Shown piece after piece: positions 21,303 through 60,422 of a DNA stretch of 64,000 nt. The translations under genes and the position numbers were made by a program. The DNA is from Eledone cirrhosa. Its lineage: Eukaryota. The stretch lies in the NCBI GenBank assembly GCA_964016885.1, contig OZ024742.1, forward strand, positions 319,362,001 to 319,426,000, given 5' to 3'. The first letter of the stretch is position 1. Every line of letters starts with the position of its first letter. The notes under the pieces were generated by a model. The model was given only the letters and a program-made list of their open reading frames with translations. It was not told the origin of the DNA and made no database searches.

Positions 21303-21488
21303 TCACCAGAATGAATTGGAAAAGTAATTAGCTGCAGTACGTAACCAACTTCCAGAATAAAAACTGTTATTTGAGGTCCCGTTACGGCAAACAGCCTTTT
21401 CATCAGGCTGTGGGCTTTCAATATCATCTAAATACTCAGGTCCTTCAGTACTAGCATTGGCTGGATCACTATTACATGGCAAAATAAC
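21303..21488 (-). CDS. ARMC1: ARMC1 last coding exon (8/8): VILPC...PEYLDDIESPQPDEKAV...SWLRTAANYFSNSFW*
   Basis: Matches the recalled ARMC1 C-terminus (PDYLPEDESP..KAVSR..SWLSTAANFLSRSFYW). Acceptor TTTACAG, phase 0. Confidence 0.9.
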   Translation of the reverse strand, partial: VILPCNSDPANASTEGPEYLDDIESPQPDEKAVCRNGTSNNSFYSGSWLRTAANYFSNSFW

Positions 21489-22544
21489 CTGTAAATATAT
21501 ATAAAGAAAACAGACATTTATATACTGTATAGACTTGTATATAAGTTGAGAAATATGTGACAAAAAAAAAAGATGGTAAAATGATAGGGCTGGCTTATAT
21601 TTGAGGTCAATATTTTACTGATTTTCATCAACTTCAAAATCCTACGTAAATGAGGTTCTAAAATATTTTTGCTTTGGAGGTAAACATACTGGTTTCACTT
21701 TGGAGGTGAATATTACATTGGTTTCACATTGGAGGTGAATATTACACCGGTTCATTTTCGTTGTGAAATTCATATTTCCCATTGTTTTTTTTTATGTTTT
21801 GAATGAATATATCCTTCAAAATGGTTGGAAATTGTAATTGTAAAAAAATTGTTACATAATGGAGTTGTGAAACACAAACTATACTCTAAATGATACTTAG
21901 AACATTTTAAATATCAAAATATCAAAACTTCACAAATATATTCTCCACTCATGAGAATTTCAAAACCACACCATCTAAACATAATGTGTTGATTACCTGC
22001 CTCTGCATATACAAGGGGTTTGGGTTTTTGCCTATTTCTCAGACATAAAATAGTGGGGTAGACTTGTATTTGAGTTTATATAGTAATTTGAAAAGAAGGT
22101 CTTTTCCTTGAAATATGATGATGAAATATATAGGGAAAAACGTTTTGTTTTGTCATCTTTTACCCCAGTTCCATCTTTGTATTTCTATCTGCATTGTTAT
22201 GGCTTTATCAATACTCACTCTGTTATCTATTACATATATTGATATACATTTTTGTGTGCATACTCACACACACACACAAATGCACATATTTAGGAATACA
22301 AACAGAAAAAAATTTCTCTATTCAAAACTAAAGCTTCTTTCTGGTGTTACCCAGTTTCCTGTTCTATAGCTGTTTGACAAAGTGAAATTATATACTCATC
22401 TGCTTTAGTCTCGTCAGTCAGTTATATACAGAGGCTTAAAACCATTATCTCTGTAACATGCATTAAGCAATACAGTGTTACCTAGCCCCTACTGTCACAC
22501 ATCTCAGCTGTTCTGTAATATTGAACATGGTAACAGAAAGCATG

Positions 22545-22695
22545 CAACTGGTTGGTCATGTCTTGTGGTAGTCAGATTATTGATAGGCAACTGGTTGGTC
22601 ATGTCTTGTGGCAGTCAGATCATTGATATGCAACTGGTTAGTCATGTCTGGTGACAGCCAGATCATCACATCTGGTTGCATCCAGATCATCATGT
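22545..22695. repeat. ~43-bp degenerate tandem repeat
   Basis: GCAACTGGTTGGTCATGTCTTGTGG.AGTCAGAT.ATTGATA repeated about three times. Confidence 0.75.
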
Positions 22696-22852
22696 CTGCT
22701 GGGTGTTTTATCATGATATGACTGGGGACTTATTAAAATATTTGAGAAACCCATGAGGTACAAATGCATAGGAGGCCACATAGGTGTAAGCTGTAACAAC
22801 ATGAAATGTATCAAACAAATATAAAACCTTTGAATTGTATGTTATACTATAC

Positions 22853-22927
22853 CTCTTCTCCAAATTCATTTTTTACAATCTGCTGAGCTGACATAGTTTG
22901 AGACTTTGCTATTGCTTCTATTAATAC
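22853..22927 (-). CDS. ARMC1: ARMC1 coding exon 7: VLIEAIAKSQTMSAQQIVKNEFGEE
   Basis: AG/GT bounded, 75 nt. Compare human [25 protein letters not shown]. Confidence 0.9.
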
Positions 22928-24319: not shown

Positions 24320-24436
24320 CTCAGGTTGTACTTTGGAAAGGGCTCTGATTGTGCAACGAGATTTGTTCATATCAAAGATTATACTGACAACACCTTTGAC
24401 TTTTATAAGGAGACAGGTACATAATTCACGATCATG
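24320..24436 (-). CDS. ARMC1: ARMC1 coding exon 6: HDRELCTCLLIKVKGVVSIIFDMNKSRCTIRALSKVQPE (HMA-like fold)
   Basis: TAG acceptor, GTAAGT donor, 117 nt. Compare human [33 protein letters not shown]. Confidence 0.9.
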
Positions 24437-24704: not shown

Positions 24705-27700
24705 TAATAATAATAATAATGATTTCTTTATTGGCCACAAGGGTTGACATCAAGAAAAACATTACAGACGGCACAGGACGGTACGATGTGGGTTTTGTGC
24801 GTGCAAAAATTTTTATTATTTATATAAGAAACGAAAAAGAAAAAAGACATAGAAACATATATATAAACAATAAAAAATTCCCCAATAGAGGGGAAACCTC
24901 CGAGGGTTACTTGTGGCGTAAACCACACAAAAGACCACGGCCACCCTGACCACCAGGGCAAATGCCCTCTCTCAATTTTTCCATTCCTCAAACTACAAGC
25001 ATATATTCAGAGTGGTCCCGTTTACTCGGTCCATTCTCACTACATTCACTCACCTTTCATCAAACTTGTTAGAAGATAGCACTTGCTTCTCCACCCTGAT
25101 TTTCCTCTTCAAGTGAAACTTGAAAAAGTTAATCAGGGATTCGCTGAAGAGGAAAGTGTCTGTCTTTAACCCTTTCAACCTTGTCCACCTCACAATCTCT
25201 TTCGCCATGGTCACCAGGAAGATGAAAACTGCCTGGAAGACGGCGAGACCATCTGCACAATGGACTTAGTCGATAATCGGATCGATCCTACACGCGACAG
25301 CAACTGTTCGACATAGCTCCACAAGTCAGCAATGCTCGGGTACTGAATGAGTGCGTGCACAACGGTTTCGTCGCTCTGCGCGCATCTTGGCTGACGACAC
25401 TTCCGTGCCTGTAGAGCTTATCTCGAACCGGCAATGCTCCCCGGTAGCACTGCCAGGCCAGGGATTTCTGGAAGTTATCCATAGGTCCTGGGCTGAAAGT
25501 TCTCCAGAAGAGAGCAAACAGCTGATCTTCTTCGACGCCCAGGATCTCTCTGAGAACGTCGTTGCTCTTCCCCTCCACTAGTCCTTTATAGAACGCCGAG
25601 GTGGATGTTCCACTGATACTGGTGCCCAGCTGGCAGAGGGGGGTGAGCGCCTGGAGACATTCCAGTTTCCAAGCGCTATCCCTCGGTCTTTTCCTGACCC
25701 AGGACTACAGCTCCGTGGCAAATGGCGACCACACCTGTTCACCGTCAAGGAAGCACCAGAGATGTCGCAGCCTCAGCGCATCATCAGCCACGGCATGCCC
25801 AGTCCTCCACGCAACGGGTGTTGACAGCAGATGGATCGTCTGACCATGGGAGTGCGTCCTTTCCACAAAAAGTGGGGCAAGGGACGATGGTGAGGCGGTA
25901 GCAGATGACGGATGCGATGAACGCATTGGCCACCTCCGCCCGGCCTTTCAGGGACAGCTTCCTCTCGGCCCATTTCTGGGAGAGGGAGGCCACTTTGCTC
26001 ATCACTTCGCTCCAGTTTTTCTCCATCTGGAGGTCTGGTCCGAACCAGACGCCTGAGCAATTTAACCGGTCCGTCCGTCCAACGCCCCACAACGCTGTCG
26101 GACGGCATGGACTTGCCTCTCCAGGTGCCGAGCTGTAAGCTCACCAACTTTTCCTGGTTTATCTTTGCTCCTGTCAGCGCTTCGGATTCCTTGAGAGCGG
26201 TGCCGAGCATCTGGACGTGTCTGGTGCTTGACACCACCACGGTGACGTCGTCGGCGTAAGCTGAATCGGATTTCCCGCATCCTAGTTCGCGTGGGACACC
26301 CCTCATCGCCCCCAGTTTGTGCAGTAACGGCTCGAGAGCCAATACGTACAAGAGAGACGAGAGGGGACAACCCTGATGGACCGAGCACATGATGCTGAAC
26401 AGTTGCAACAGCTGACCGTTCACTCTCACAACCGAGCAGATGTCGCTGTACATCGCAGAGATCCAACCCCTGAAAACGGGCCCAAAACCGGCTGCCTCAA
26501 GGACCGCCGTCAGGTACCGATGGTCGACCCTATCGAATGCTTTGGATTGTTCCAAGTTGATCAGGACCCCACCCATGCCAGGTTCCTTAACCACCCTCTG
26601 TATGATGTATCGCATGAGGTGGAGGTTGTCGTGTATGGATGTCTGGAATGGCGCATGTCTGCGCCTCTCCCACCAGATCCTCGACGACAAGCGCCAACCT
26701 CGTTGCTAACACCTTCGCCAAAATCTTGAGCTCTGCGTTTAGCAGAGTTATGGGCCTGAAGTTATCGATAACATCCCCTTTGTTCGGGTCTTTTCTCAGC
26801 AGCGCCACTGCTCCCCAGCTCACAAAACTGGGAATGCTCCCGTTCTTCTGCCAGTTACAGTAGACGTCTGCCAAGAGGTCACCGAACAAGTCTGGCATAA
26901 ATGCATGAAGCTCGTAGAGTAGACCATCCAAACCTGGCGATTTACCCCTTGTGCAGTTAGCCATCGCTTCCTGTATTTCACCGGCTGTTATTGGCTTTTC
27001 GCAACACTGTGCTGCGGTCGTCGAGAGCCGAGGCAGTCCATCGAGGTATGCACTGAAGTCCATACCCCGATCCGGCTTGCCGCTGCTCCCGAACAGTTCA
27101 GCAAAGTGCTGCTGAAAAGCCTCACACATCTGCTCGGGTTCGAGCAACACGCGCCCGTTTTGGTCAGACAAAGACTGAATTGTAGATTTGTTGCCACGTC
27201 ACGCCTCTGCCACCCAGGCCCATTGGACGGCTTTTGTCCCCTCGTGTTTCAGAGCACGCGTTCTAGCTCTGATAACGCAGCCTTCGTGTTTTGCGTTGAA
27301 GAATTGGTCGAGTGCCAATCTCGCCGCAAGCACGTCGGTTGCGATGCCTGTCCTAAATGCCTCTTCTAGCTTTCTGACTAGCTCTCCCTCTACTCTATTT
27401 TCCTCTATCACTAGTCCTTTGCTAAACCTAATCGACCCTACTTTAATTGCCCTTTTCAGGGCAAACCACTACCTGTTGTTGACGACCGCTCTCGTCAACG
27501 CCCGCTTAATACGCTAATCCGGTCTCTGTAGGCTTTGCGCGCCGGGAAAGATGCGTTCAGCTTCCAGTAACCGGGTCCTTGTCTATGAAGTCTGTCTATG
27601 TTGATCTCACAGATCACAAATTTGAGCTCTGTGTAGTCGACTATTTTAAATTGTGGACAACTTATACTAGCCTTATCTAGTTCTCTGCAGAATACCCTAT

Positions 27701-30480
27701 TGAGATACGATCTGGATGACTCGATGCGGTTTGTCCATGTCTACATTGGCACATTCGGGTGATCCAGTCGATACCTGTCAGACAGTTCAAAACGTTTGAG
27801 CAGGTTGGTGAGGCTCTTGCACCCTCCTCCCCTATCCACTAGCCCCACACAAACCCAGCGTGCATCCAAGATACCGTTCCAGTCGCCCACTAACACTAAA
27901 GAGCAGGACGTTCCAAGAAAGGTCTCTAGACATCTGAAGAAATCTGGCCGTCCTGCCCCATTTGGGGCATAGACGGCTACTAGCCTGAAAGCATTGCCGG
28001 TCATGTCCAGCCTCTCCGAAAAAGGACTGCAACTCCTCCCTCCAATCCTGGATGGCTGGGAGATGCGTATACATCGTAGCCGCCGAAGATCGGTGCGAAG
28101 GCTCGTGGTTCGGAGATTCTGGTCTCGCTGATGGCCACCACATCTATGTTTAGTGACCTGAGGTCATTGAGCAGGTGACCCTGCTTCCAAGATGAGCCCA
28201 GGCCACGTACATTTATACTGCCTATTCTAAGTACAGCCATGTTGGATGAGAAACGGGGCAAGTGAGAAAGGGTCACTTACCTTGATCGTGTGGTGAAGGG
28301 ACAGTAGAACTGTCCCTTTGGCTGGTCATGGGTGTTTCCAAGAGGATGTCAGTGTATATTCTCTTGGTAACCGACCCTCTGAAGTTTCCAACTGCGTTGA
28401 GGAATTTTTGTTTTAAAAGTTTGTACTGTTCTATTTTGATATCAATGATGCTTATGTTTGTTGGGAGAGTTCTTGGTGTTGGTGGGGTGTAGTAGTTTTT
28501 TTCTGTGATGGTTGTGTGCTGCTTTATATGTTGTGTGAGTTCTTTATTTGCCATGTTTATGGCTGTGTACTTTTGGGGGGAGGGGTGATTTTGTTGCTGT
28601 TGTGTGTGTGTGTTTTGTTGTTGGTGTTTTTGGTGATGCTGGTGGTGGTGTGGTTGTTGTTGGCGGTGGTGCTTGTGATGGTGATGGTGGTGGTGTTGCT
28701 GCAAGTCTCCTTGCAGCCTTTACCCCTCTTTGTGTACCTTCGCTTTTGGAGAGTGAAGCTAAGGGTTTTTTTGTTTTTTGTAGCAGACCGTTTGTCACTT
28801 CACTCCCGCATCAGACTCCATGTCGAATTCCGTGGCGTTTGGGAGGGGTATGTGCTCTACGGCTGTTGGTGGTGGTAGTGGAGCCCTCTCCAGCGATTTT
28901 GTTGCTGCTACCGATGCTGCTGCTTTAGTTGTCCGTCGCCTTGGTACGGGTGCCACGGACGTTGCCCTCCTACTCACGGTGGAAGGGGCTTCTGCGTTTG
29001 TTGCCTGCCCTGCTCTTGGTAGAAGTGGACCAGGCATTGGAAGGAGAGGGGCCTTCTTCTTCGGACAAAAGACCCTGAGGTGACCCTTTGACCCACAGAG
29101 ATAACATTTTGGCCATCCTCCTTCCACGCTTATAGGGAGTTGGAGTCCTTCCTCGAGGTCTATGATATTGGGGATAGCGTCGATACACTCCTGGTCAGTT
29201 TGTATAAGCATTTGCATGCCTATACCTGACCAGTTCTCTTTCCCTACTTTCTCTATTTGCAGCATGGTCGTCCTGTCCTCAATTCCAGCAAGGACAGACA
29301 CGGCCAGCGATGGTATGGGCACGTTGGGTGGGACCAGGGTCAATTTGACCCTCACAATTTTCTGCCTGCAGTAGGAGGGCACCAAGACTATCTCCTCACT
29401 CTTTAGGGTTTCCAAAGAGTGAGACTTCGCTTCTTGGGGGGGGGGGGGGGGGGGGCGAAAAGTACGTCTACTGTGGCGTACTTTCTGCCTCGGGTGATGT
29501 GGGTTTTGCGCGCCCAGACGCATCCCAAGGCCTTTTAAATTTGAGCCTCCGTGGCTCTCTCCACCCGATGTGACATTTTGCTTACAGTGCGGTAAGTCAC
29601 CGTCCGTAGCTGCTGGTCCTTGAAAAAAATCGGGTGGAAGTTTCAGGGTAACTCTATTGGCGTTTCTTGTCACCATGGCCCTTGCGACTACCATCTCCTC
29701 CTCTGTGACTAACACAGTTTCCATATTTCGGGCCACACCTGCAAAAGAAGTAGTCCCTTTTTCAGTGGCACCACTATTGCTGCTGCTACTGGTCTTGCTG
29801 GTGGTGCTGAGATTGCTGTTACTGGTATTGATGTCATTGTTGATGTTTTCGTTGGTACTGTTGTTGCTGTTGTTTTCGTTGATACTGTTGCTGTTGTTAC
29901 TGTTATTGTGGCTGTTATTATTATTGTTGTTTTTGTTGATACTGTTCCTACTATTATTGTTGTGACTGTTGTTATTGTCGTTCTCGACCTTACCGCTGTT
30001 ATTTTTGTTATTGTCGTTCTCGACCTTACCACTGTTATTTTTGTTGTTGCTGTTGTTATTGCAGGTGTTGTTGTTGGTGTTATTGTTGGTGTTGTTTGTG
30101 TTAGGAATATTTGGTAATTTTAAATCTGTAACAATATCATTAAAAATGATATTGTTCCTCTTTTCCTTTGTAATATTTTCTTTTATATTTACCTTCGCTA
30201 GAACACTGTCTTGTTGATATGTTGACAAAGTCTCCCTCCGCTCTCTCTCTTTCTTGTGTTATCCATGTTGAAAGAAATTTTTTTCAAATAATATTTTTAC
30301 ATAATACGACACCCCGTAAAGGGGTGCCGTATTATTTACGAGTGAACCCCTGTATTGGGTGGATCACTTCTTCTAAACTTTTATCAAGTTTAAAACTTGA
30401 ATAAAAGGTTTAGAACGGTTGAAAACGAGGTAAACTGTCGAAAAAAAAAACTTGAGGCGATAAGAAGCGTGGCTTCACCT
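24705..30480 (-). mobile_element. Near full-length, degenerate Tx1/L1-clade LINE (ORF1 with CCHC knuckle, ORF2 APE-RT, AATAAA + (ATT)n tail)
   Basis: ORF1 28795-30228 has an Asn-rich tract and CYLCGSKGHLRVFC. ORF2 fragments: IGSINVRGL..ISETR, VYAPN, GDWN, GKSPGLDG, FRPITLLNAELKILAKVLA, KAFDRVDH, QGCPLS, AYADD, GGLGMP. Many frameshifts. Confidence 0.9.
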
Positions 30481-30488
30481 TCAATAAC

Positions 30489-34764: not shown

Positions 34765-34858
34765 CTTATCAAAGAGGCCTTTTAACTGAAATAGTAATGT
34801 TTTGTATTTACTGTTGCGACTACTGTTTGACTTGTCAGTATTTTGTTGGTTGCTTCTT
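34765..34858 (-). CDS. ARMC1: ARMC1 coding exon 5: RSNQQNTDKSNSSRNSKYKTLLFQLKGLFDK
   Basis: TTTTCCAG acceptor, GTAAGC donor, 94 nt, phase 2 to 0. Compare human KRAKTVVLHIDGLDD. Confidence 0.85.
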
Positions 34859-36580: not shown

Positions 36581-36691
36581 CTCTTATTTTTAGGAGTTTG
36601 ATAAATATTAGTTGTGACAGGGTTAAGAGGAACGGTCTGTAAAGTTTCATGTAGTTTCATTGATTTGCTACAAATATCTTCATTTGGAGAT
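36581..36691 (-). CDS. ARMC1: ARMC1 coding exon 4: SPNEDICSKSMKLHETLQTVPLNPVTTNIYQTPKNK
   Basis: AG/GT bounded, 111 nt, phase 2 to 2, open frame that links exons 3 and 5. Confidence 0.8.
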
Positions 36692-38537: not shown

Positions 38538-38626
38538 TGAAGAATTTCCTGAAGCTGCATTTGTAGGTAATTATTGTCGCTAAGTAAGGTTTTACCTTCT
38601 GGACATTCCGACAACAGAAGAAAGAT
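38538..38626 (-). CDS. ARMC1: ARMC1 coding exon 3: IFLLLSECPEGKTLLSDNNYLQMQLQEIL
   Basis: TTTCTAG acceptor, GTAAGT donor, 89 nt, phase 0 to 2. Compare human ALRYLAECRANREKM..SLQNVIQ. Confidence 0.85.
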
Positions 38627-40908: not shown

Positions 40909-40983
40909 CTCTAAAGTTGAGATTATCACAGTTTCTGATTCATTGCTAAGTAGAAGAACAAGTCCATCAATCAAAGTGTTGTC
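40909..40983 (-). CDS. ARMC1: ARMC1 coding exon 2: DNTLIDGLVLLLSNESETVIISTLE (ARM repeat)
   Basis: CAG acceptor, GTCAGT donor, 75 nt. Compare human [25 protein letters not shown]. Confidence 0.88.
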
Positions 40984-42485: not shown

Positions 42486-42560
42486 CTGAAGAAGAATACT
42501 TCTCTGTTTAGGATCAACAGCAAATAACTTGAGTGAGTCGAGAGAATCAAGAGATATCAT
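42486..42560 (-). CDS. ARMC1: ARMC1 coding exon 1: MISLDSLDSLKLFAVDPKQRSILLQ
   Basis: AAAAATG start with an acceptor TTTCAG 13 nt upstream and a GT donor. Compare human LRDLAADPLNRRAIVQ. Confidence 0.88.
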
Positions 42561-45096: not shown

Positions 45097-45100
<4 letters not shown>

Positions 45101-45363
45101 GCCAGATTTAGACCGGGGGGGGGGGGTACTTCAGGTTTGGGCGGGCGGGGGCTTCATACATAAAAAAAATTAGCATACACTGCAAACCCCCAATTTTACA
45201 TATCAAAGTCAGCTTGGCACAAGTAATTGGAATTGAAAAGTTATGCATACAGGTATTAAGTTAAAAAAATCTAACCATACTAAAACTAAAAAGCCCAGCA
45301 GAGGGCACAAATAAATTGCTACAGCCAACACTTTATTGCAGGGGCCCAGGAAATTCGGCACTG
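45097..45363. mobile_element. hAT-like MITE
   Basis: Imperfect TIRs CAGAGCCAGATTT / AAATTCGGCACTG. The 8-bp flanks are TATATATA and TAGATATA. Confidence 0.65.
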
Positions 45364-46129
45364 TAGATATATCATAATCCTTTTACACCCTTTTGCAAGG
45401 GTTGGATGGATCCTTTCCTGCACACCCTCCCTTCCACTCATTGCATTCCTTTGTTAACTCCCCAGTGAAGTTTTTTTCAATCTTCTTCTACTGCAGCTTC
45501 CTTCCACTGGCATATCCTGGCACTTCTTCATCCAGTGTTCATTCTTTATACACATCACAGAGCCATACCAATGCAGTTTTCTCTTTTGCACCCTACATCC
45601 GATTCCTTATACACATAGTGTTTCTCTCAGTTCCTCCACACCATGTTGTTCATGTAATGCTTGCTTCAGTTTTCATTAACCTCTACATACCCAAGTCCCG
45701 ACACGACAAAAAGCGCCCAGCCCACACTGTAAAGTGGTCGTGTAGGTTTCATGACAAAAAGCGCCCAGCCCACACTGTAAGTGTGGTTGGTGTTAGGAAG
45801 GTCATCCAGCAGTAGAAACCAAGTCAAAAACCAGTCCTGAATGAGCAAGACATTGTCATCGGACCTGGCTTGTCTCACAACGGAGCAACTCATCTAACCC
45901 ATGCTAACGTGGAAAAATGGACGTTAAACGACGATGATATCCTCTGCATTTACAACCCATGTCTTACTGCCATGCAACATCACACTTTTCATGTAGGCAT
46001 CATGCAATTATTAAGTACAATACTATAAAATAGCAGTTATTTGTGGGTAAATAATTCGCGGCTATCCAAAAATTTCAAGACCGGGGGTAAAGAAAACATG
46101 TCCACCTTTTATCTAAGAATGGCGATTAC

Positions 46130-46983
46130 CTACACAATTTAAAACGAACCATTATATTTTATTTGATAGATTTATCAGTAGCAATAAGAGCATATAAGTA
46201 TATATTTACAACAGTAGAAAGAACTTGAAAACAAAACCCTGAATACAGCAGCACACTTTCAAACGAACTGTATCTAGATAAATGTGTATGTTATGTAAGA
46301 AAACGAGGACGATCCACTTTACAAAAGTATACAACAGGTTAAATCTATTGCATAATCAAACTGAAATTATTTAAGAGAAGCAGGAGTTACAAATATACCA
46401 ACGCACTAGCCTTTCTATTCGAAACTTTACAAAAGACATGAATAATTAAATCATTTCTCCCAGTTATTGTTTTGAGACGAATATAGCATACATACCACGT
46501 TGAAAAATATTTAGAAATTTGTTGACGAAAATCAACTTTCTTCTTTCACTTTGCTTCGATTAGAATTTGATTACTTGGACAATATATTAATGGCAAAAAA
46601 ATACAGGAAACAGAGATAAATAAACAACAATTATATTAATTAAAACTTCTTAATATAATTACTTAATAGAAAAGCAAGGATAACATGAAATTGTATGTAT
46701 TCTTGTTTGGGTGTAAATAATTTTGCGTATTTTGATTGGCTAATTTCATCAACGGTCACAATTTCTGCTAATTTAATTGGTCAATTTCTTTACTTGTCAT
46801 TAGCGCTAAATTCAACAGTACTCCCAATTCAATTGCATTTCACTTTCTATTTTTATTTATTTATAAATACTCGATCAAAATGGCTTTTAATCGATAATAT
46901 TATATTATAATTGTCTCAGCATTGTGTTTTTCTGATGTTAAACACATAACGAAACATCAACAACATATATAGTTATATAATAG
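46130..46983. promoter_or_regulatory. Putative bidirectional promoter and first non-coding exons of ARMC1 (-) and MTFR1-like (+)
   Basis: Repeat-free island between the divergent genes. CCAAT boxes: ATTGG at 46735 and 46776, CCAAT at 46824. TATAAAT at 46862. Outward-facing donors: AG|GTGAGT at 46983/4 (+) and AG|GTAATC at 46130/29 (-). Confidence 0.6.
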
Positions 46984-48299
46984 GTGAGTAACTAAATATT
47001 TATAAGTAATTGCACGTGTTTAAAAACTCTTCCTTATTCTTTAATAATATGTGACAATTATTTAAGGCCGATATATGTAATAATAACAGTTATATATGTG
47101 TGTATTTTAAATAGGTATGACTCTTCTACGATGCAGTTATTTTAGTTTCAACACACGATCTTACTCATTAATGTTTTTGCTTAGGCAGACTAAGTAACTT
47201 TCTTTACATTTTTGTTTTAAGTAAAATTCAGAATCCTAGGAAAGTGATAATGGTCTGCACAGGCAACAATTAATCCAATGTAAAGTTTTCGAAGTTCAAT
47301 AGCTATGATGAAGTAAAGAATCAAATATATTTAGTTTGGGTCGACCTGCTTAGTCCCTCGCCTGTTTCTTCTGAAAATACACCCACATCTCTTAAAATAT
47401 TATTTTTAAATAACACACGACAGGAAAGATAAGATGACACATGCCTAAAGATATAACGAAATGTTCATGTTTTGGAAAGTCTTTGATCATAGTTCCGCCT
47501 GATCAGCAATGGTCGATTTACGTTTGAAGTGTGTACGAAAATGGCATTGATATTAGAAGAAGCATTTTAGAAGAGGCTATGACGCCGGTAAGAGTGTCAG
47601 ACACTATGAGTTGCGGCCCAAGTTAAGACAATTTGAAATCTTTTCCCCCATCAATTGTTAAAAAACAAGTTGAAATCATTAAGTCGTCCATTCGTAACGT
47701 ACGTTACGCTTTAGTTACATACACATACATCTACACGTAAATACAGATACAGACAACAGAAGGAAGGGCCTGGTGAAACGCTATAGCGATGTGTGTTGTG
47801 TCCCTTTAGGGTTTACCGGCTACATAGCCTATTCGTTTAATTTTCTTTTTCTTTAAGCGTCGCAGTAAAGAAGCATTTCTCCTCATAAAACAATGAATTA
47901 GAAGAAATTTAAAATACATTTCCTTACTTTAAGGATAGTAAAATATTCTTTCAGTTTTGTCACATTGTTACTAAATCTGCTTGTAATTAAGCCAGTTATT
48001 AATTTAACTAGCCTGACGTTCAGTTGATCAAACAACTGAATGCTTTTATTTATTCGACAAATTTCAATTCGGTTATATAATGTTTGCAATAACAACAAGA
48101 AAAAGAAAGAGGGAAAAAATTAAATAACGAAAGTAAGGAAAAGGTTTAGGGGACGGGAGAAAGGCAATGTTTAAATAAAAGAAGAGAGGGAAAAAACTGG
48201 AAACTTAAGAAGGAATACCAAACAGTACTAAAAAAAAAAACAAACAAATCCTCGTTTAAAACAGTAAAGAAAATGTAAAGGAAGAGGTGAACAACCGAG

Positions 48300-50139: not shown

Positions 50140-50968
50140 AGGACTGGATGTCCTTCCTAACGCCAGCCACATTTACAGTGTGTACTGGGTGCTTCTTATT
50201 GTGGTACCAAAACGAACACTTTACAGTGTTGACTGGGTGTTTTTTGTTGTGATACCTACATGACCATTTTATAGTGTAGACGGGCGTGTTTTGTCATGGC
50301 ACCAGAAACGACCGAGTAACAGAGTAGACTGGAGTGGGGGAGGTGTATGGGGATTGGAGAGGTAGATCTAGAGTAGGGTACATATCAGGTGAGGGGTGGA
50401 TAAGGAAGGGGTGTTAGGACGTTGGAGGTGTATGGAAAGAGGTAGGTGAGAGTAATATATACTAGATGTATGCTTCAACCTGTGCACATGGCAAGGCGGG
50501 TCTTCTGTATTACTGCATAACACTAGAGATCTCGATCCTGTGTCATCGCCTTTGAGAGGTGTAATTGTGCAAGGTCAGCTTTTATCACCTCATCCAAAGT
50601 TTTCCTAGGTCTTCTTACTTCATAGCTTCCATCAACTTTGAGCACTTGCATATTTTTATACTGTTGTCATCTGGCATATACAACACATGTCCATATCAAC
50701 ACAATCTCCTCTCCTACCCAGTTTCTCTTTCAATTCAATTAAACTTTGCTGTTCATGTAAATTCCTATTACACATCCATCAAAGCATGGAAGCTTCATTT
50801 ATTTCCAATGTTCACAGGTCCTCTGCACACATCACCTAGGTATCACTACCATGTAACATTGCTGTTCATATACACGCATCATACAATCTACCCTACATTT
50901 TAAGGAGAAAATCTTTCGTAGCTAGCAGCGGTAGTAGCTCGCTGGACCTTTTCCATCTCGTTCTCATT
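50140..50968 (-). mobile_element. Old RTE 3' remnant, antisense to MTFR1-like transcription
   Basis: MRTRWKRSSELLPLLATKDFLLKM corresponds to VRTGWKKFRELLPLLAAKGFSLRM, and the 3' UTR repeats are inverted. Confidence 0.75.
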
Positions 50969-51016
50969 GTTTTATGGATCGAATCTGATTTTAATCGTTT
51001 TTTTTTTCCAGCAACA

Positions 51017-51082
51017 ATGTTCCTCGCATTTGGCAGTTTTGTATTCAGCTGGCTTTTCGAAGTCGCAAACCAACAGAACACT
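51017..51082 (+). CDS. MTFR1: MTFR1-like coding exon 1: MFLAFGSFVFSWLFEVANQQNT
   Basis: Strong acceptor (T)nCCAG at 51011, ACAATG start, GTGAGT donor, phase 0. Confidence 0.65.
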
Positions 51083-51302
51083 GTGAGTTTTGTTTTTAAT
51101 CTTTATTCATTTATTTATTTTAAGGAGATTTGTGGTGTATGTGTTAACCTAAGAACGGTTAAGAACTTAAAAGTAGAAATAATTATTTTAATGTCTCCTA
51201 ACAAACCATGTAGAATTATCTCCCTTGCAGTTGTATTGTTATTACGCTTAAAATGTTGTAAGCTTAATTAAGTGTTCTCCAATTTCCAAATCCACCATTC
51301 CA

Positions 51303-51790
51303 ATGAGGAGTGGCTGTGTAAAAGAACAATTCTTGTCCCCAAAACATCACAGTGAATGCCATCAACAAAATCTCTCACAAATGATCCCTGGAGCTAGCCA
51401 GACTAATAAGTCTATCGACAAAGTTGTCGATAAGGACAAAGCTGTTCATTATTCTGTTGAATTTCTCAACAGTCTGGAACCGTCCGTTATGTTGCCGCAC
51501 AACCTTGAATTGAAGGAGTGCATTGTCACCATGCTTCTCAGAAACCAAGATCAGCCAAGATTGTGCAATGGGATGCATATGGTTATGACTGAACTACAGC
51601 CTCACATTATTGAAGCCCAAATCTTCACTGGATGTGGTAAAGAGGACATCACATTTATACCTAGAATGCCGCTAATACCAACAGATGTCCCTTTCGTTTC
51701 AAACGATTTTGTAATTCCCAGTGAAAATCAGTTATGCAATGACCATCAAAAAGTCCCAGGGTCAAACACTGCAGGTTATATGTACCATCT
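51303..51790 (+). mobile_element. Helitron Pif1-helicase fragment (pseudogene)
   Basis: VEFLNSLEPS.M.PHNLELK, MLLRN..QPRLCNG, IIEAQIFTG, FIPRMPLIP, then SYAMTIKKSQGQT after a frameshift. Confidence 0.85.
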
Positions 51791-51969
51791 AGAAGATGGC
51801 ATATGTGTATGTATATATATATATGTGTGTGTGTGTGAGGTTGAAATCAGGAATGTTATCAGGCCACAGAAAAAAAAACAGCTTGAAATAAAGGGCTCAT
51901 CCAACCCATGCTAACATGAAATGCAGAACATAAGGATTTTCACCACGCCACTTTGTTTTCTTTTTGTAG

Positions 51970-52077
51970 TTTACTTCCCTGGTTAAAAGATTGTTCAGTT
52001 CTCTTTCCACCTCAAAAAAAGTGAAAGCACTTAAAGCACATTTTCACCCAAAGACAGTTTATAAAGTACTTCAAGAG
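51970..52077 (+). CDS. MTFR1: MTFR1-like coding exon 2: FTSLVKRLFSSLSTSKKVKALKAHFHPKTVYKVLQE
   Basis: TTTTTGTAG acceptor, GTAAGA donor, 108 nt, only frame 0 open. SLVKRL resembles MTFR SIVR.I. Confidence 0.7.
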
Positions 52078-52477: not shown

Positions 52478-55400
52478 TTCCCTGCTGTATTAGCGATAAA
52501 TTTTCGAGGGTTTTTCTTAGTAGTTTTCATGACGTTATTATTGTTAATCTTACTGATGTAGTATTAACTTGGATATTTACCATGCGGTATTCTAATTCTA
52601 TTGTATCTCTCTCAGTTATTTACCATGCGACTCTCAGTTCCTACCTCACAAGCTCCCTCTCCCCCACCCCCACACACCACCATAGTCTATTCGACCAATC
52701 AAACCTAGCATGCCATTTCCACTGCTGCTGCTACTACCTGCCTAACTAACTCTCTCCTCCTCTGGCGCATCCCAACACACCCTGCCATTACCCCACCACC
52801 ACTGTTCTTCTAGCCCTCAATTTTCCCACCGTTATGGATGGATGAGCTGAGAATACATTTGAGCAACTCTGAATCAATAGATGAAATATGAATCTGCGAG
52901 CTACCAGCACCCACGTGAAGCGCCAACCCAGAGACCCTCCCCTACGAGTGTCGACAAATGCCCAAAACTCCGAGTTGGTACCATCAATGTAGGCTCAATG
53001 AAAGGAAGAGCAGGGGAAATCGTAGAAATGCTAGAGCGAAAGGAAGTTGATGTATGCTGTGTGCAAGAGACTAGATGGAGAGGAGGGTCTGCTAGAGTCC
53101 TTGTAGGAAAAAGCCAGTGCTACAAATTTTTCTGGGTGGGAAATGACGATGGGATGGGTGGTGTAGGTATACTACTAGCTGACAAGTGGGTAGATAAAGT
53201 AATCTCAGTGTACAGGGTAAATGCAAGAATCATTAAACTCAGACTAGTCCTGAATAAGACAATTACAACAATAATATCAGCTTACGCACCCCAATCGGGG
53301 CTGCCAGACGAACTTAAGGATAGGTTTTACGAGTCCCTAATACACACTACTGCTCTAACAGACGACAAGGACTTCCTAATCATTGCAGGAGATTTTAACG
53401 GACACGTAGGTAAACACTGCGACGGCTTCAATAGAGTACATGGAGGCCATGGAGTTGGCACAAGGAATGAGGAAGGATTCAGACTTCTAGAATTCTGCGA
53501 CGCCAATGACATGTCGATATGTAACACAAACTTTAAAAAACCCGACAACCACCTGATCACCTATAGATCAGGGGAGCACTCTAGTCAGTTAGATTTTATC
53601 CTCATCAGAGGACGTGACAGATGGACGGTCGTAAACACAAAAGCCTTCCCTAGTGAGGAATGTACATCCCAACATAGCTTAGTTGTCAGCGACCTCACGG
53701 TCAGAACTAGACGAGCCCTGAAACAGAGGCCAACCTGGAGAAGAAAGATCTGGAAGCTGAAAGTCCCCTCAACCAGTAACAGATTTAAAGATATTTTACT
53801 CAACGCCTACGACAGTAAAGAAGAACAGATAGAGACATTTAACGTAGAAGAGAACTGGGAGTTCCTAAAAAATAACTTACTAGAGGCGACGGATGAGGTT
53901 TGTGGCTGGAGTAAGACCTCAAGCAGGAGGAGAGTGACTTGGTGGTGGAACAATAAGGTAGATGAAGCAGTCAAGGCCAAGAGACAGGCATGGAAAGAAT
54001 GGAAGAACGGGGGGAGCAGGGTACATTACATAGAGACCAAGAGGGAAGCTAGGCGACAAGTATACTTAGCTAGGAGGGAAGCAGAGGATAGAAAATTCAA
54101 GCATGTTTTGCAACGTGAGGACCAGAAACAGGAGGTGTTCAAGATTGCGAGGCAGTGTGTCAGAGAGAGTTGTGATGTCATTGGAGAGAAGTGTATGCGG
54201 AATGATAAAGGTGAGCTTGCCCTCACAAGTGCTGAGAAGAAAGATGCATGGAAGAGTCATTATGATAGATTACTAAATGAGGAAAATGCATGGGAAGAAG
54301 AGACCCTACCCCATGTAGACCCTATAGAGGGACCAGCAGTACAAGTCAGCGGCAGCGTAGTAAGTAAGGCAATCAGAGATATGAAGATGGGGAAGGCAAC
54401 CGGTCCATCGGGTATAGCTGCCGAGATGCTGAAGGCATCTGGGTCTGTAGGTCACACTATAACCACATGTATCGTTAACCAGGTAATACTAGAAGGGGCC
54501 ATACCAAAAGATTGGTGCAGTAGCATCATTGTCAACTGCTACAAAGGTAAAGGCGATGCACTAGATAGAGGAAACTATAGAGGTATAAAGTTGATGGACC
54601 AGGTCATGAAAGTAACAGAAAGAGTTATAGCACAGCTGATTAGGGACCGGGTGAATATAGACGAGATGCAATTTGGGTTTGTACCAGGGAGAGGCACCAC
54701 TGATGCCCTCTTCCTTGTGAGGCAATTACAGGAAAAGTACCTAGCTAAAAGTAAGCCACTCTACTTGGCATTTGTCGACCTTGAGAAAGCCTTTGACAGA
54801 GTTCCACGTGCTGTAATCTGGTGGGCTCTTAGAAAACTAGGAGTAGATGAATGGCTTGTGAAAGCGGTACAAGCCATGTATAGGGGAGCAGTCAGCAAAG
54901 TTAGGATTAGCAATGAGTATAGCGAGGAATTTAGCGTACAGGTTGGGGTCCACCAGGGCTCTGTTCTTAGCCCTCTCCTGTTCATCATAGTCCTGCAGGC
55001 AATAATGGAGGAGTTTAAGACCGGATGCCCATGGGAACTCCTGTATGCTGATGACCTCGCACTCATAGCTGAATCTATGGTAGAACTAGAGAATAAATTC
55101 CAAACCTGGAAGCAGGGACTAGAGAGAAAGGGCCTCAAAGTCAACATGACAAAGACTAAGGTCCTTGTAAGTAGACGAGAAAACAGAACCCAGATCCCCT
55201 CAGGGAAATGGCCTTGCTCAGTATATAGGAAAGGTGTAGGTAGGAACTCCATTCTCTGCCCCAAATGCAAACAATGGGTACACAAGAGATGTAGCGGGAT
55301 CTCAGGAAGCTTAATTAAGAATGTAGGATTCACATGCAGCAGCTGTGCTGAAACAGCAAGCAAACAGCCACAGGAAACAAGTACCACCAATCTCTGGGAG

Positions 55401-56312
55401 GGCCCTGTAGAAACAGTAGACAGCTTCTGCTACCTAGGTGACCGAATTAGCAACGGAGGTGGGTGCTCAGAAAGTACAATAACTAGGGTAAGAACGGGAT
55501 GGAAGAAGTTTAGGGAACTACTACCACTGCTAGCTGCAAAAGGCTTCTCCCTCAGAATGAAAGGCAGACTGTATGATGCGTGTATCCGAACAGCGATGTT
55601 GCATGGTAGTGAGACCTGGGCGCTGAAGGTGGAAGACTTACGTAGATTAGAGAGAAACGAAGCCTGCATGCTCCGATGGATGTGTAACAGTAATATACGT
55701 GAACGACAAAGCATAAATGAATTGAGAGAGAGACTGAGCATAAGAGGAATCAAATGCTGCGTGCAGGAGAGGCGGTTACGCTGGTATGGACATGTGATGC
55801 GTATGAAGGATGACAGCTGCATAAAAAGGTGCAGAGCACTAGAAGTTGATGGAAACCGCGGAGTGGAGAGACCCAAGATGACTTGGGATGAGGTGATAAA
55901 AGCCGACCTTACCCAACTACACCTCTCAAAGACAATGACACACGACCGTGACTTCTGGCGTCACGCAGTAATACAGGGTACCCGACCTCCCATGGGTACA
56001 TGCTGAAGCATATAAACAATATGCCCCCACTCCCCCCACCGCAAGGTGGTCGTGGAGGTGCCACGGCAAAAAAGCACCCAGCCCACACTGTAAAGTGGAC
56101 GTGTAAGCGCCACGAAAAAGCACCCAGCACTCACTGTAAATGAGGTTGGTGTTAGGAAGGGCATCCAGCTGTAGAAATCAAGCCAGATCAGTTCCTGTAT
56201 GAGCAAGGCATGGTCAGCCGACCAGACACTGCCCACAACAGGACAACCCGTCTAACCCATGCTAGCGTGGAAGAACGGACGTAAAACGGTGATGATGATG
56301 ATGATGATGATG
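52478..56312 (+). mobile_element. Full-length RTE-clade LINE in an MTFR1-like intron (5' boundary approximate)
   Basis: Intact single ORF, a 3' UTR with internal repeats, and a (GAT)n tail at 56289-56312. Confidence 0.9.
52881..56006 (+). CDS. RTE ORF, 1041 aa: APE endonuclease + reverse transcriptase + PHD-like finger
   Basis: GTINVGSM, CVQETRW, SAYAPQ, GDFNGHVG, LDFIL, SQH; QFGF, FVDLEKAFD, YADD; CSV(Y)..CPKC..HKRC..CSSC. No stops. Confidence 0.95.
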   Translation: MKYESASYQHPREAPTQRPSPTSVDKCPKLRVGTINVGSMKGRAGEIVEMLERKEVDVCCVQETRWRGGSARVLVGKSQCYKFFWVGNDDGMGGVGILLADKWVDKVISVYRVNARIIKLRLVLNKTITTIISAYAPQSGLPDELKDRFYESLIHTTALTDDKDFLIIAGDFNGHVGKHCDGFNRVHGGHGVGTRNEEGFRLLEFCDANDMSICNTNFKKPDNHLITYRSGEHSSQLDFILIRGRDRWTVVNTKAFPSEECTSQHSLVVSDLTVRTRRALKQRPTWRRKIWKLKVPSTSNRFKDILLNAYDSKEEQIETFNVEENWEFLKNNLLEATDEVCGWSKTSSRRRVTWWWNNKVDEAVKAKRQAWKEWKNGGSRVHYIETKREARRQVYLARREAEDRKFKHVLQREDQKQEVFKIARQCVRESCDVIGEKCMRNDKGELALTSAEKKDAWKSHYDRLLNEENAWEEETLPHVDPIEGPAVQVSGSVVSKAIRDMKMGKATGPSGIAAEMLKASGSVGHTITTCIVNQVILEGAIPKDWCSSIIVNCYKGKGDALDRGNYRGIKLMDQVMKVTERVIAQLIRDRVNIDEMQFGFVPGRGTTDALFLVRQLQEKYLAKSKPLYLAFVDLEKAFDRVPRAVIWWALRKLGVDEWLVKAVQAMYRGAVSKVRISNEYSEEFSVQVGVHQGSVLSPLLFIIVLQAIMEEFKTGCPWELLYADDLALIAESMVELENKFQTWKQGLERKGLKVNMTKTKVLVSRRENRTQIPSGKWPCSVYRKGVGRNSILCPKCKQWVHKRCSGISGSLIKNVGFTCSSCAETASKQPQETSTTNLWEGPVETVDSFCYLGDRISNGGGCSESTITRVRTGWKKFRELLPLLAAKGFSLRMKGRLYDACIRTAMLHGSETWALKVEDLRRLERNEACMLRWMCNSNIRERQSINELRERLSIRGIKCCVQERRLRWYGHVMRMKDDSCIKRCRALEVDGNRGVERPKMTWDEVIKADLTQLHLSKTMTHDRDFWRHAVIQGTRPPMGTC

Positions 56313-57266: not shown

Positions 57267-57355
57267 AGTTATGGTACTGATTCTGATTCTGGACTTTCTG
57301 AATCTGAAGTTACTTGGATAGAGGAAGACCTTGGTGATAACTGCATAAAAATAAG
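57267..57355 (+). CDS. MTFR1: MTFR1-like coding exon 3: SYGTDSDSGLSESEVTWIEEDLGDNCIKI(R)
   Basis: TTGCAG acceptor, GTTAGT donor, phase 0 to 2. Resembles the MTFR motif S.ADV.WVA.EEGE..ARLR. Confidence 0.75.
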
Positions 57356-59200
57356 GTTAGTAATGTTTTTGTTCAATGATAAAACTGGAATGTATGTAAG
57401 CAAGGCATACCTTCTGGGCCATCTAGCTCAGATTAAGTAATGTAATGATCTGTCCAACCTTTGTCAGCATGGAAAAACAGATGTAAAATGATGAGGAAGA
57501 GGATTATCTACAGAAAGCAATGGACAATAGAAGTATTAAAATAATTTTTTTAACCCCACTGATGTCAAATCCCCCCATGCTTTTGTACTACAGAAATGTT
57601 TATTTTAAAGTATTTATATTTAAATTTAAACTTTCCATCATGATTTAAAGTAAGAAACTTTATGAAATTATGTTCCTGACACCAGTTTAATAATGAGAAA
57701 GTTAAATCCCTACAAACTGTCAATTATTTAAAAAAATTATTTTAAATTAATAGGCAGTGTCTTTTTGGGGAAATATAATAACAAAAGGGTTAAAGTGATA
57801 ATATTTATCTAAAAAAACCTATCAATTTTTTGTAAGAACCTTTAAGTTGTTCCAAATATTAGCTTAATAATTAGAAAGTTAATTATATTACTCAATCACT
57901 ACAAAATTCTTAATTATTTTCAAAATGATTTGAAAACCATAGGTAGTCTTTCATTAGAAATATGGTAAAGAAAAGGTTCATGACTTAGTCAAATGAGGAC
58001 GGGTAGTACCTATTAACATTTTCAGGATCTCTACGATTGGCAGATAAAAGAGATGATGTTATTTTCAGCTGAGAAGCTGGACCAAAATGCTTACAATGGA
58101 GTAGATTTTGTTAAAAATCACCGAAAGCTGAGGTGGTGTTTATCATCATCATCATCATCATCGTCGTCGATTAACATATATCTTCCACGCTAACATGGGT
58201 TAGATGGGTTTGTCGCAATTAGAGGCAAATTGGATTGGGTGACCGTGTGTCGCTCATATAGGAGAGTTTCTGGCTGGTTTTCTATGGCTGGATGCCGTTC
58301 CTAATGCCAACCACATAGACAGTGTGTTTATGTTGATAAATTTGCCTTTTTGATATACGAAACTACCTGATACCACACCTGGTTCTATGCTATACAACTA
58401 TTTATTTTTAAATGTTTGTATTTATATGTAAAAAGAAAAAACCTCCATCATGATATTATGTAAGAACGTTTGTTATGTTCCAAAAGCCAGTTTAATAATG
58501 AGAAAGTTATTTGAAAATCATGGGCAGTTTCTTTAATTAAGAAATATGGTATGGAAAGGTTTACGTCTACCACTCAAGAACAGAAATAGTCCTTCCTATA
58601 GACAGGGAATGAGACCTGGTTATGTAGTAAAATAATTCTACTACACAACAGGTGTTCATTTCATCCTTACTAAACAAAACCTCACCAGTTTGAATGGACC
58701 ACTTGTGAAAAATATTAAAATTTTACTGAACACATTTGTGGTCAAGATAATCACTGTTCTCTTCTCAATTTCATTTTGTATTTCCTATCCATATATACTT
58801 TCTTTTACTGTTACCGGTTTCAGTCATTGGACTGCAACCATGCTGGGACATTGCCTTCATAACATTTAAATAACCATATTAACTCTAGTTCTTTCTTTTT
58901 TTAAGTTTGGTACTTATTTTATTGGAACACAAAGAATGTTCCAAATTGTACAGTTTCATCGCCATGTCCTATGCGTAGTTGATGCCTTAGGAAAACATCA
59001 CACACGGAAAGCACATGTTATTTCCCCCAAAAAAATTCAAGAAAGTTTGCATAGTCAGGACCGACGGGGCGAATTTTCAACGGTGTTCAGACGCAAATTC
59101 TAGTTGTCAGTCTGATATCCATAACTAACTGTAAAACTCATTTCATCCTTTATAATTTATGTAATAAATACATTTTTTTTTTATTGTTTGTTTATTTTAG

Positions 59201-59391
59201 AACTCAAGTGAATAATCGTGGAAATTTACAATTTAATGAAAGTGTATTGTCATCAGTTAACCTCATGGACTCATTACGGACATCAACTCCACTTAATCCT
59301 TTTGAGGAAAGTGTTAATTCCTTACAAAAGATCAATGAAATGCAATCTGAGATTGAAAAACTAAAGGAACAAATTGCTATGATGTGCAAAA
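59201..59391 (+). CDS. MTFR1: MTFR1-like coding exon 4: ...SVNSLQKINEMQSEIEKLKEQIAMMCK (coiled coil)
   Basis: TTTTAG acceptor, GTAACG donor, phase 2 to 1. Compare MTFR1 [24 protein letters not shown]. Confidence 0.82.
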
Positions 59392-60177
59392 GTAACGATT
59401 TTTTAAATTAATTTTATTTTAACTCTTTTGTAAAATTTGTTGTAAAAATGATGGTGTTGTTGCTGATATATATATATAGAATAAGAAAATATGAAATAGT
59501 TACAGATCTTAAAGTCCTTTATTGATAAGGCTGTGCATATTTCAATGACGATATTAGCCACACGATTCTGCTTAACCAGTGCTATGATCTCATCAGACAG
59601 CTCTATTACATAATAAGGTTATGTTCTCGAGGCAATCCAAATTAAAATGACAAGGGAACAGACAAAGATGATGTTTTTGAAGCCTTTGCTTGTTCCCTTG
59701 TGAGCCCTAATTCACCTTCACAGCATTGCGCAGGTGCAAATGTGATATATATATATCAGCAACGCATTGGATAACATTTGCATAACAACCTTTTGATGCC
59801 TTTGAAATGTACCCAGTACTCTCTAGCGTGGTTGGGGATAAATATGAGAACCTCCTTACTATTGTTGATCTACATGATAAACATATCTAGTACACTATGT
59901 AAAGTGGTCGGTAATAGGAAGCGCATCCAGTCGTAGCAAACCTATCAAACAAAGGTTCTGTAGGACTCTTCAGCTGTGTTGAAGACATTACTATTTCTCT
60001 AGTGTTGGTGCCATGATAAAATGCACTCCTGGAAGTCTGAGGTTTTAGTTGAGTACTGACTATTCTGTGATGATCTATCCAACTCTTGCTAGCAGGAAAA
60101 ACAGATGTTAAATGATGATGATGACACCATATATAATATATATATTGTTTTATGTATATTCTACCTCCATGTTTTAG

Positions 60178-60422
60178 GTGCAGCTTTCAAACCAGAAGAA
60201 ACTTGCTCAAATAATTCATCAGTGACACCAACAGTACCCACCACACCACAAACTTACTTACCAAGAACTACAGTTCCACCACCACCGCCCCTGCCATCAC
60301 TGCTGCGAGCACCAGTGCCACCGCCTCCTCCACCACCACCACCTCTATCTACTTCAAAGACGAGTGATTCAAGTTCTGAACCAACTAAAAAATGTTTGTC
60401 TCTTGGAGATATACTTAAGCAG
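60178..60422 (+). CDS. MTFR1: MTFR1-like coding exon 5: polyproline tract and SLGDILKQ; gene continues beyond this exon
   Basis: TTTTAG acceptor, GT donor, phase 1 to 0. PPPPPLP..PPPPPPPPP then LGDILK (MTFR1: NMLEILK). Confidence 0.82.

What the first reader, a model, noticed from the sequence alone, without database searches (positions are those of the whole stretch)
21303..60422. ARMC1 and an MTFR1-family gene are head-to-head in an invertebrate, as in human
Seen: eight phase-consistent minus-strand exons give a 273-aa ARMC1. Five plus-strand exons carry MTFR motifs (V.WI.E....K.R, the LQKI..M..EI..LK.QIA coiled coil, polyproline, DILK). Both genes point away from a shared island near 46.5 kb. 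Known: human ARMC1 and MTFR1 are divergent neighbours on 8q13, and ARMC1 has been reported in a complex with MTFR proteins and MIRO at mitochondria. Inference: the pair may be an ancestral bilaterian co-regulated module of interacting mitochondrial-dynamics proteins, retained in a lineage known for heavy genome rearrangement.
Basis: partly seen in the sequence, partly recalled or inferred. Interest (0 to 1): 0.8.

Follow-up and report, generated by a model that had tools for sequence, protein, structure and literature searches.

The report
Ancient head-to-head ARMC1–MTFR gene pair
This octopod keeps two genes back to back whose human proteins work together to position mitochondria; the same arrangement occurs in a likely coral, so it predates bilaterian animals and is likely held together by one shared promoter.

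Summary
Confirmed, and older than proposed. The minus strand encodes a 273-aa ARMC1 (8 exons). The plus strand encodes a 351-aa MTFR: 5 exons in the window, 3 beyond it. The start codons are 8.5 kb apart, around a single-copy, CpG-undepleted island at 46.0–47.6 kb with outward-facing splice donors 487 bp apart. An unrelated animal contig (L042, likely a stony coral) has the same divergent pair with start codons 325 bp apart and two CCAAT boxes between them. O. bimaculoides accessions are consecutive. The linkage is already in print, unremarked: block 7418 ('Planulozoa novel') in the supplement of Robert et al. 2022 lists both genes in 8 species, including the squid Euprymna, without orientation. 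Here a third block member, ARFGAP1, lies 4.6 Mb away while the pair stayed together. Human ARMC1 stabilises MTFR (McKenna 2025), so a shared promoter matching their dosage is the likely constraint, but co-expression was not tested. The human orientation is recalled, not checked. The octopod MTFR lacks the Miro-binding L/F-A-D-I/V motif. This is a new, well-motivated example of a known class (HSPD1–HSPE1, HADHA–HADHB). The scan had not noted it before.

The parts
42486..42560 (-). ARMC1 coding exon 1 (ATG at 42560; acceptor 12 nt upstream, so a 5' UTR exon likely lies further up)
40909..40983 (-). ARMC1 coding exon 2 (begins with D26, inferred equivalent of human D37)
38538..38626 (-). ARMC1 coding exon 3
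36581..36691 (-). ARMC1 coding exon 4
34765..34858 (-). ARMC1 coding exon 5
24320..24436 (-). ARMC1 coding exon 6 (HMA-like domain)
22853..22927 (-). ARMC1 coding exon 7
21303..21488 (-). ARMC1 last coding exon (C-terminal domain, stop)
45958..47613 (.). Single-copy, AT-rich, CpG-undepleted island; likely shared promoter. Candidate 5' UTR-exon donors facing outward at 46496 (-) and 46983 (+); CCAAT/ATTGG at 46735, 46776, 46824
   Evidence: transcription starts not mapped
51017..51082 (+). MTFR coding exon 1 (ATG at 51017; acceptor 6 nt upstream, so a 5' UTR exon likely lies further up)
51970..52077 (+). MTFR coding exon 2
57267..57355 (+). MTFR coding exon 3 (W-I-E-E block; lacks the L/F-A-D-I/V Miro-binding motif)
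59201..59391 (+). MTFR coding exon 4 (coiled coil; Pfam PF05308 E 6.9e-4 on its own frame)
60178..60422 (+). MTFR coding exon 5 (polyproline). Exons 6-8 lie outside the window: L001:7861-7988, L001:9117-9297, L002:228-275

Best explanation
ARMC1 and the MTFR gene face away from each other across one single-copy island in this octopod and across 325 bp in a likely coral; the pair is inherited from the cnidarian-bilaterian ancestor and is likely kept together by a shared bidirectional promoter that would match production of a stabiliser (ARMC1) to its client (MTFR). Shown here: both genes, their orientation, the island, the same orientation in a second distant animal, and displacement of the neighbouring block gene ARFGAP1. 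Taken from papers: linkage in 8 species; human ARMC1 binds MTFR, protects it from proteasomal degradation and assembles it with MIRO. Inferred: that transcription starts in both directions inside the island, that the genes are co-expressed, that the octopod proteins bind, and that dosage matching is the selective reason. In the octopod, transposons expanded the 5' UTR introns, pushing the start codons 8.5 kb apart without entering the island.
For: Gene models. ARMC1: 8 of 8 genome matches at this locus; MTFR: 7 of 13 matches here, including the four strongest. Island CpG o/e 0.93; best AT-rich window outside it 0.62; single-copy amid repeats; outward donors 487 bp apart with CCAAT motifs between. 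L042: ARMC1 ATG 8177(-), MTFR ATG 8502(+); spliced contigs L016 and L018 reproduce its MTFR exons and start at 8392-8397; two full CCAAT boxes at 8306 and 8337 and a CpG-undepleted patch at 7.5-9.0 kb; 4 of its 6 ARMC1 introns sit at the same column and phase as the octopod's. O. bimaculoides MTFR2 XP_014781003/5/6 and ARMC1 XP_014781008, both with a 110.5-Mb contig. Block 7418: ARMC1 and MTFR in 8 of 8 listed species, ARFGAP1 in 5, TAF2 in 2, the CSPP1 orthogroup in 2. ARFGAP1 4.6 Mb away here. Cattle order ARMC1, MTFR1. Both genes are among 30 found in bee and vertebrates but not in three dipterans, Tribolium, Bombyx or C. elegans. Biochemistry.
Against: No RNA data for the octopod; start sites and co-expression are untested. 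No sequence similarity between the octopod and L042 promoters beyond 8-13-nt chance words. CCAAT clustering is weak evidence in the octopod: 4 such triplets occur in the window and only one of the three sites fits the full consensus. The pair is absent from Li et al. 2006 human and mouse head-to-head tables while HSPE1 is present, in line with my recall that the human starts are about 10 kb apart, so a compact promoter is not needed in mammals. Block 7418 lists only 8 of 49 genomes (3-gene rule; file cut when stored). ARMC1 also has MTFR-independent roles. The third acidic residue of the human interface is Ser in the octopod, and its MTFR lacks the Miro-pocket motif.
Confidence: 0.65

Rival explanations
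1. The pair is ancestral and shares a promoter, but the lock is mechanical: a breakpoint in a shared housekeeping promoter is harmful whatever the products do. The protein partnership is incidental or arose after the linkage, and dosage matching plays no part.
For: Many ancient 5'-5' pairs exist (54.8% of human CAMPs). MTFR level is buffered after translation by degradation, which lessens the need for transcriptional matching. Vertebrate MTFR2 and MTFR1L also depend on ARMC1 although they lie elsewhere in the genome (recalled).
Against: Of all possible neighbours, the locked partner is the protein most specifically dependent on ARMC1. The two are the constant core of block 7418 and are missing together in several ecdysozoans.
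Confidence: 0.25
2. Slow decay of an ancestral block, or a bystander relation with another gene, with separate promoters and no co-regulation.
For: ARFGAP1 and TAF2 are still listed in the block in the squid and in Saccoglossus, so neighbourhoods here decay slowly. Mammalian starts are not in the close head-to-head tables.
Against: In the octopod ARFGAP1 has left and only one promoter-like island lies between the start codons. In L042 about 215 bp separate the MTFR transcript 5' end from the ARMC1 start codon, leaving little room for two independent promoters.
Confidence: 0.08
3. Chance or independent re-creation of the adjacency in octopods and vertebrates.
For: None found.
Against: Linkage in 8 species across cnidarians, spiralians and a hemichordate, the same orientation in L042, and cattle gene order.
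Confidence: 0.02

Closest known systems
Microsyntenic block 7418, 'Planulozoa novel' (Robert et al. 2022, PMC8851819, supplementary file 4)
   Same: The same two orthogroups (ARMC1 OG0005453, MTFR OG0003303) linked in Aurelia, Nematostella, Exaiptasia, Acropora millepora, Crassostrea, Lingula, Euprymna and Saccoglossus.
   Different: The table gives no strand, distance or promoter, and the main text never names the genes. No octopod is listed, and here ARFGAP1 has left the block.
Conserved ancestral microsyntenic pairs, co-regulated 5'-5' class: HSPD1-HSPE1, HADHA-HADHB (Irimia et al. 2012, PMC3514665)
   Same: Ancient head-to-head pair of non-paralogous mitochondrial genes; the named examples encode partners in one complex (established knowledge).
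   Different: For those, co-expression is measured (r about 0.8) and HSPD1-HSPE1 has a shown bidirectional promoter; here neither is shown. ARMC1 and MTFR1 are not in that paper's main text, and its supplement could not be read.
Human ARMC1-MIRO-MTFR-TMEM11 complex (McKenna et al. 2025, PMC11980836; Covill-Cooke et al. 2024, PMC10897228, first-author name recalled)
   Same: Same two protein families; ARM plus HMA-like plus C-terminal domain architecture; two of three acidic interface positions kept.
   Different: One MTFR locus found instead of three paralogs; third acidic position is Ser; Miro-pocket F/L-A-D-I/V motif absent. The McKenna text has 0 hits for synteny, chromosome or head-to-head.

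Membership tests
ARMC1 | [quoted passage not shown] | tested here: met
   Model of the 83%-identical O. bimaculoides protein: helices 4-97, block pLDDT 67-91; matches armadillo repeats at E 7e-4 to 5e-3.
ARMC1 | HMA-like domain without the metal-binding cysteine motif | tested here: met
   Beta-alpha-beta-beta-alpha-beta at 136-207; top match PacS N-terminal domain, target TM 0.88. No CxxC in the strand-1 loop; a CxC lies in the next helix.
ARMC1 | Short conserved C-terminal domain | tested here: met
   Aligned W...W tail in all full-length rows; helix 260-269 at low confidence.
ARMC1 | Best match to ARMC1 families outside cephalopods | tested here: met
   Atlas scores 0.96-0.97 to chordate ARMC1 clusters with the O. 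vulgaris protein; 31% identity, E 7e-39, to the L042 protein. No vertebrate sequence was retrieved for a direct reciprocal BLAST (5 hits, all cephalopod-like).
ARMC1 (MTFR-binding form) | Acidic residues D27, D37, D49 of the human interface | tested here: inconclusive
   Mapped by spacing only: L042 has D16, D26, D38; the octopod has D16, D26, S38. The human sequence was not fetched.
MTFR (Pfam PF05308) | Pfam score above the 26.3-bit cut-off | tested here: met
   The 79%-identical P0001 scores 70 bits. One window exon frame alone scores 20.3 bits, under the cut-off, and the family search of the genome found nothing. The spliced window protein was not scanned.
MTFR (Pfam PF05308) | Coiled coil, polyproline tract, SPGG and A-L-x-x-K-F blocks | tested here: met
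   All align from choanoflagellates to vertebrates.
MTFR (Miro-binding form) | F/L-A-D-I/V motif entering the Miro pocket | tested here: not met
   Absent in the window protein and O. bimaculoides; a relaxed pattern found it in 14 of 30 proteins. It defines the known binding mode, not the family.
MTFR1 versus MTFR2 orthology | Grouping with one vertebrate paralog | tested here: inconclusive
   The tree groups it with cephalopod proteins (100/100) outside the vertebrate clade; no jawed-vertebrate MTFR1 was in the set.
Co-regulated ancestral gene pair (Irimia criteria) | 5'-5' orientation, conserved across lineages | tested here: met
   Octopod and L042. Human orientation recalled; the eight species of block 7418 have no strand data.
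Co-regulated ancestral gene pair (Irimia criteria) | Very short intergenic distance (under 1 kb) | tested here: inconclusive
   Met in L042 (325 bp between start codons). Inferred in the octopod (487 bp between outward donors, no start-site data). Not listed in human or mouse head-to-head tables.
Co-regulated ancestral gene pair (Irimia criteria) | Correlated expression | not testable with these tools
   No usable RNA run was available to me.
Co-regulated ancestral gene pair (Irimia criteria) | Conserved intergenic sequence | tested here: not met
   Octopod island against L042 promoter: only 8-13-nt matches, E 0.4 or worse. Close relatives were not available.
Co-regulated ancestral gene pair (Irimia criteria) | Few insulators between the genes | not testable with these tools
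   Needs chromatin data.

The most novel reading that the evidence does not exclude
ARMC1 and MTFR form a stabiliser-client module encoded from one bidirectional promoter since before cnidarians and bilaterians split, kept together or lost together across animals, and unnoticed by those who described the complex. Octopods and many shelled molluscs have rewired it: their MTFR has lost the residue that enters the Miro pocket and would reach Miro only through ARMC1.
Probability: 0.3. Interest if true: 0.65.

Novelty: new member of a known kind. Interest (0 to 1): 0.45.

Why it matters
It joins two literatures that have not met: a 2022 synteny table that lists the pair without comment, and 2025 biochemistry showing that MTFR survives only with ARMC1. 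If the shared promoter is real, the partnership is as old as the cnidarian-bilaterian split. Coral or anemone would then be a one-gene-each model with a promoter of about 300 bp, free of the three human paralogs. The case also suggests that the most persistent pairs in synteny tables can predict obligate protein partners. The class of arrangement itself is well known.

Tried and rejected
Complex prediction of O. bimaculoides ARMC1 1-216 with MTFR 118-325: no verdict (scores 0.15 and 0.01, mark 0.34, alignments not used); not used as evidence. RNA: no RNA holder listed; the three runs behave as DNA of one sample and gave only repeat depth. Pfam genome search for PF05308 found nothing, exons being short. 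A wide ARMC1 homolog set could not be had (3 hits, 5), so accession-adjacency checks were limited to O. bimaculoides. Of 42 metagenome MTFR loci only L042 gave ARMC1 hits; the other 41 hold at most 2.5 kb upstream of the match, so they say little either way. Exact look-ups of five coral-like MTFR ORFs found none on record. The MTFR tree places the L016 group beside vertebrates (90/96), which does not name its phylum. The CMITE core is not in L042 itself, so the coral assignment is indirect. No ARMC1 chain in the PDB by sequence. The L042 ARFGAP1-like exon had no Pfam hit and no match in 160 kb of flank around the window. Supplements of PMC13508932, PMC9023564 and PMC2812507 (3 of 15 files not searched) had no ARMC1/MTFR hits; those of PMC3514665 were unreadable and may list the pair. 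Earlier scan findings held nothing relevant.
Full report
1. Observation. The window is G000:C3:319,362,001-319,426,000 of a 3.0-Gb genome; its proteins are closest to octopods. Eight minus-strand exons splice with GT-AG ends and consistent phases to 822 nt, 273 aa plus stop. The product is 83% identical to O. bimaculoides ARMC1 and 78% to the Argonauta protein. A model of the O. bimaculoides protein shows an armadillo-like helical domain and an HMA-like domain, the architecture described for human ARMC1 (PMC11980836; abstract, sections 7 and 10 and passages read). The five plus-strand exons are real, but the gene continues through three exons beyond the window to 351 aa, 79% identical to O. 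bimaculoides MTFR2 isoform X2, which scores 70 bits on Pfam PF05308 against a cut-off of 26.3. All 8 genome matches to ARMC1 lie at this locus. For MTFR 7 of 13 do; the other 6 are weak (E 4.6e-6 or worse), overlap the low-complexity middle and were not examined.

2. The region between the genes. The start codons are 8,456 bp apart and each follows a splice acceptor closely, so both genes likely have an upstream untranslated exon. DNA read contigs laid on 40,500-51,000 show repeats in most of the interval and one single-copy contig at 45,958-47,613. That stretch has GC 0.30 and CpG observed/expected 0.93, against 0.28, 0.31 and 0.39 in three gene-body stretches; the best AT-rich window outside it reaches 0.62. 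It holds seven donor-like sites; two good ones face outward, at 46,496 (minus) and 46,983 (plus), with CCAAT words at 46,735, 46,776 and 46,824 between them. Two weaker plus-strand sites lie left of that pair, four CCAAT triplets occur in the window, and only the first site fits the full consensus. The promoter reading is therefore an inference.

3. Outgroup found directly. A scan of metagenome contigs with an MTFR alignment returned 42 loci. One, L042, held 10 kb upstream of the match, and it carries ARMC1 on the opposite strand (tblastn E 2e-14; seven exons, 270 aa). The start codons are at 8177 (minus) and 8502 (plus), 325 bp apart. Two spliced contigs, L016 and L018, reproduce the MTFR exons (L016: 2 mismatches over the coding sequence) and begin at 8397 and 8392. 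Two full CCAAT boxes lie at 8306 and 8337, in a CpG-undepleted patch. Four of the six L042 ARMC1 introns match octopod introns in column and phase, and a fifth is three columns off; two MTFR introns match exactly. The animal is likely a stony coral. A 320-bp element in its MTFR intron gives 77 matches, most at 74-89% identity, in assembly G001, which also holds 16 copies of the core of CMITE, an element described from two Acropora species and not found elsewhere at the time (PMC2872659; first quarter and passages read). This is indirect, and the tree does not settle it. The other 41 loci have too little upstream sequence to test.

4. What is in print. Supplementary file 4 of Robert et al. 2022 (PMC8851819; rows and passages seen, file cut when stored) lists block 7418, 'Planulozoa novel', with ARMC1 and MTFR in Aurelia, Nematostella, Exaiptasia, Acropora millepora, Crassostrea, Lingula, Euprymna and Saccoglossus. 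ARFGAP1 is in 5 of these 8, TAF2 in 2 and the CSPP1 orthogroup in 2. Blocks need three genes and ignore order, so absence of the other 41 of 49 genomes does not show loss, and the pair could be older. The main text has 0 mentions of either gene. O. bimaculoides accessions are consecutive. Cattle gene order reads ARMC1, MTFR1 (PMC7601430, passages), and a human deletion on chromosome 8 lists just these two (PMC4074351, passage). Human strand and a gap of about 10 kb are recalled; the pair is not in the human or mouse tables of PMC1487180 under four names, while HSPE1 is. Both genes are among 30 found in bee and vertebrates but not in three dipterans, Tribolium, Bombyx or C. elegans (PMC2656531, section 5); that screen used TBLASTN and may miss diverged copies. 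I found no paper that states the orientation or links it to the complex (searches; passages of PMC3514665, PMC13508932 and bioRxiv 10.64898/2026.08.26.747330). The supplement of PMC3514665 could not be read and may hold the pair.

5. Rearrangement. The octopod ARFGAP1 (best PDB match human ARFGAP1, E 1e-24 and 1e-19) lies on the same contig at 324.08-324.09 Mb, 4.6 Mb from the pair. In L042 an exon that I label ARFGAP1-like from recall (no Pfam hit) lies about 3 kb past the ARMC1 stop. The block has thus dissolved here except for the ARMC1-MTFR core.

6. Mechanism. In human cells MTFR1, MTFR2 and MTFR1L are degraded without ARMC1, and ARMC1 assembles one MTFR with one MIRO to oppose retrograde transport. 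The interface uses ARMC1 D27, D37 and D49. By spacing, L042 keeps all three and the octopod the first two, including the equivalent of D37, whose reversal breaks the complex. A shared promoter that supplies stabiliser and client together is the most economical reason for the persistence; I give it 0.65. The main rival (0.25) is a promoter lock with no dosage benefit. Against a strict reading: mammals seem to have relaxed the distance, the promoter sequence is not conserved, and expression was not measured.

7. A difference from the known system. The F/L-A-D-I/V motif that enters the Miro pocket (PMC10897228, passages) was found by a relaxed pattern in 14 of 30 MTFRs, including choanoflagellates, a sponge, L016 and vertebrates. 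It was not found in the window protein, O. bimaculoides, or 6 of 6 named gastropods and bivalves; two unnamed cephalopod-like proteins keep a variant. The pattern also missed three arthropods, a jellyfish, two ctenophores, one nemertean and one unnamed protein, and such motifs are known to be plastic, so this is a lead only.

8. Verdict. The linkage is already tabulated; the conserved orientation, the compact promoter in an outgroup and the link to the 2025 biochemistry appear not to be stated. New member of a known kind; interest 0.45.

Noticed in passing
window 5006-6049, minus: Uninterrupted frame of about 340 aa with two RRM domains (Pfam RRM_1 E 2e-29) and an Arg/Ser-rich tail, in its own CpG-undepleted region; possibly a retrogene.
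   Followed up: partly
window 52881-56003, plus: Open 1,041-aa LINE frame (endonuclease, RT, PHD-like finger) inside MTFR intron 2, with near-identical copies nearby (about 10.0-12.2 kb and past the window end), suggesting recent activity.
   Followed up: partly
window 43001-44279, minus: Two overlapping frames without Pfam hits in an element with about 25 times single-copy read depth, in the likely ARMC1 5' UTR intron; looks like a DNA transposon (label recalled).
   Followed up: partly
window 51252-51911, plus: Pif1-helicase 2B fragment (E 2e-9) in MTFR intron 1, probably a Helitron remnant.
   Followed up: no
window 41050-41700: Degenerate 30-bp minisatellite in ARMC1 intron 1.
   Followed up: no
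window 25000-33000, minus: GC-rich non-LTR retroelement remnants, including a 487-aa frame with a zinc knuckle, fill the 10-kb ARMC1 intron 5.
   Followed up: no
L002, about 6.7-7.8 kb (17 kb past the window end), minus: Actin-like frame (label recalled) converging on the MTFR 3' end.
   Followed up: no
G001 (behind L055-L075): A 12-Mb assembly titled as a bacterial MAG contains many copies of coral-type repeats, so it is at least partly animal host DNA.
   Followed up: partly
P0043, P0061, P0058, P0089, P0099: MTFR-family proteins in choanoflagellates, a sponge and ctenophores, so the family predates animals; whether ARMC1 does was not tested.
   Followed up: partly
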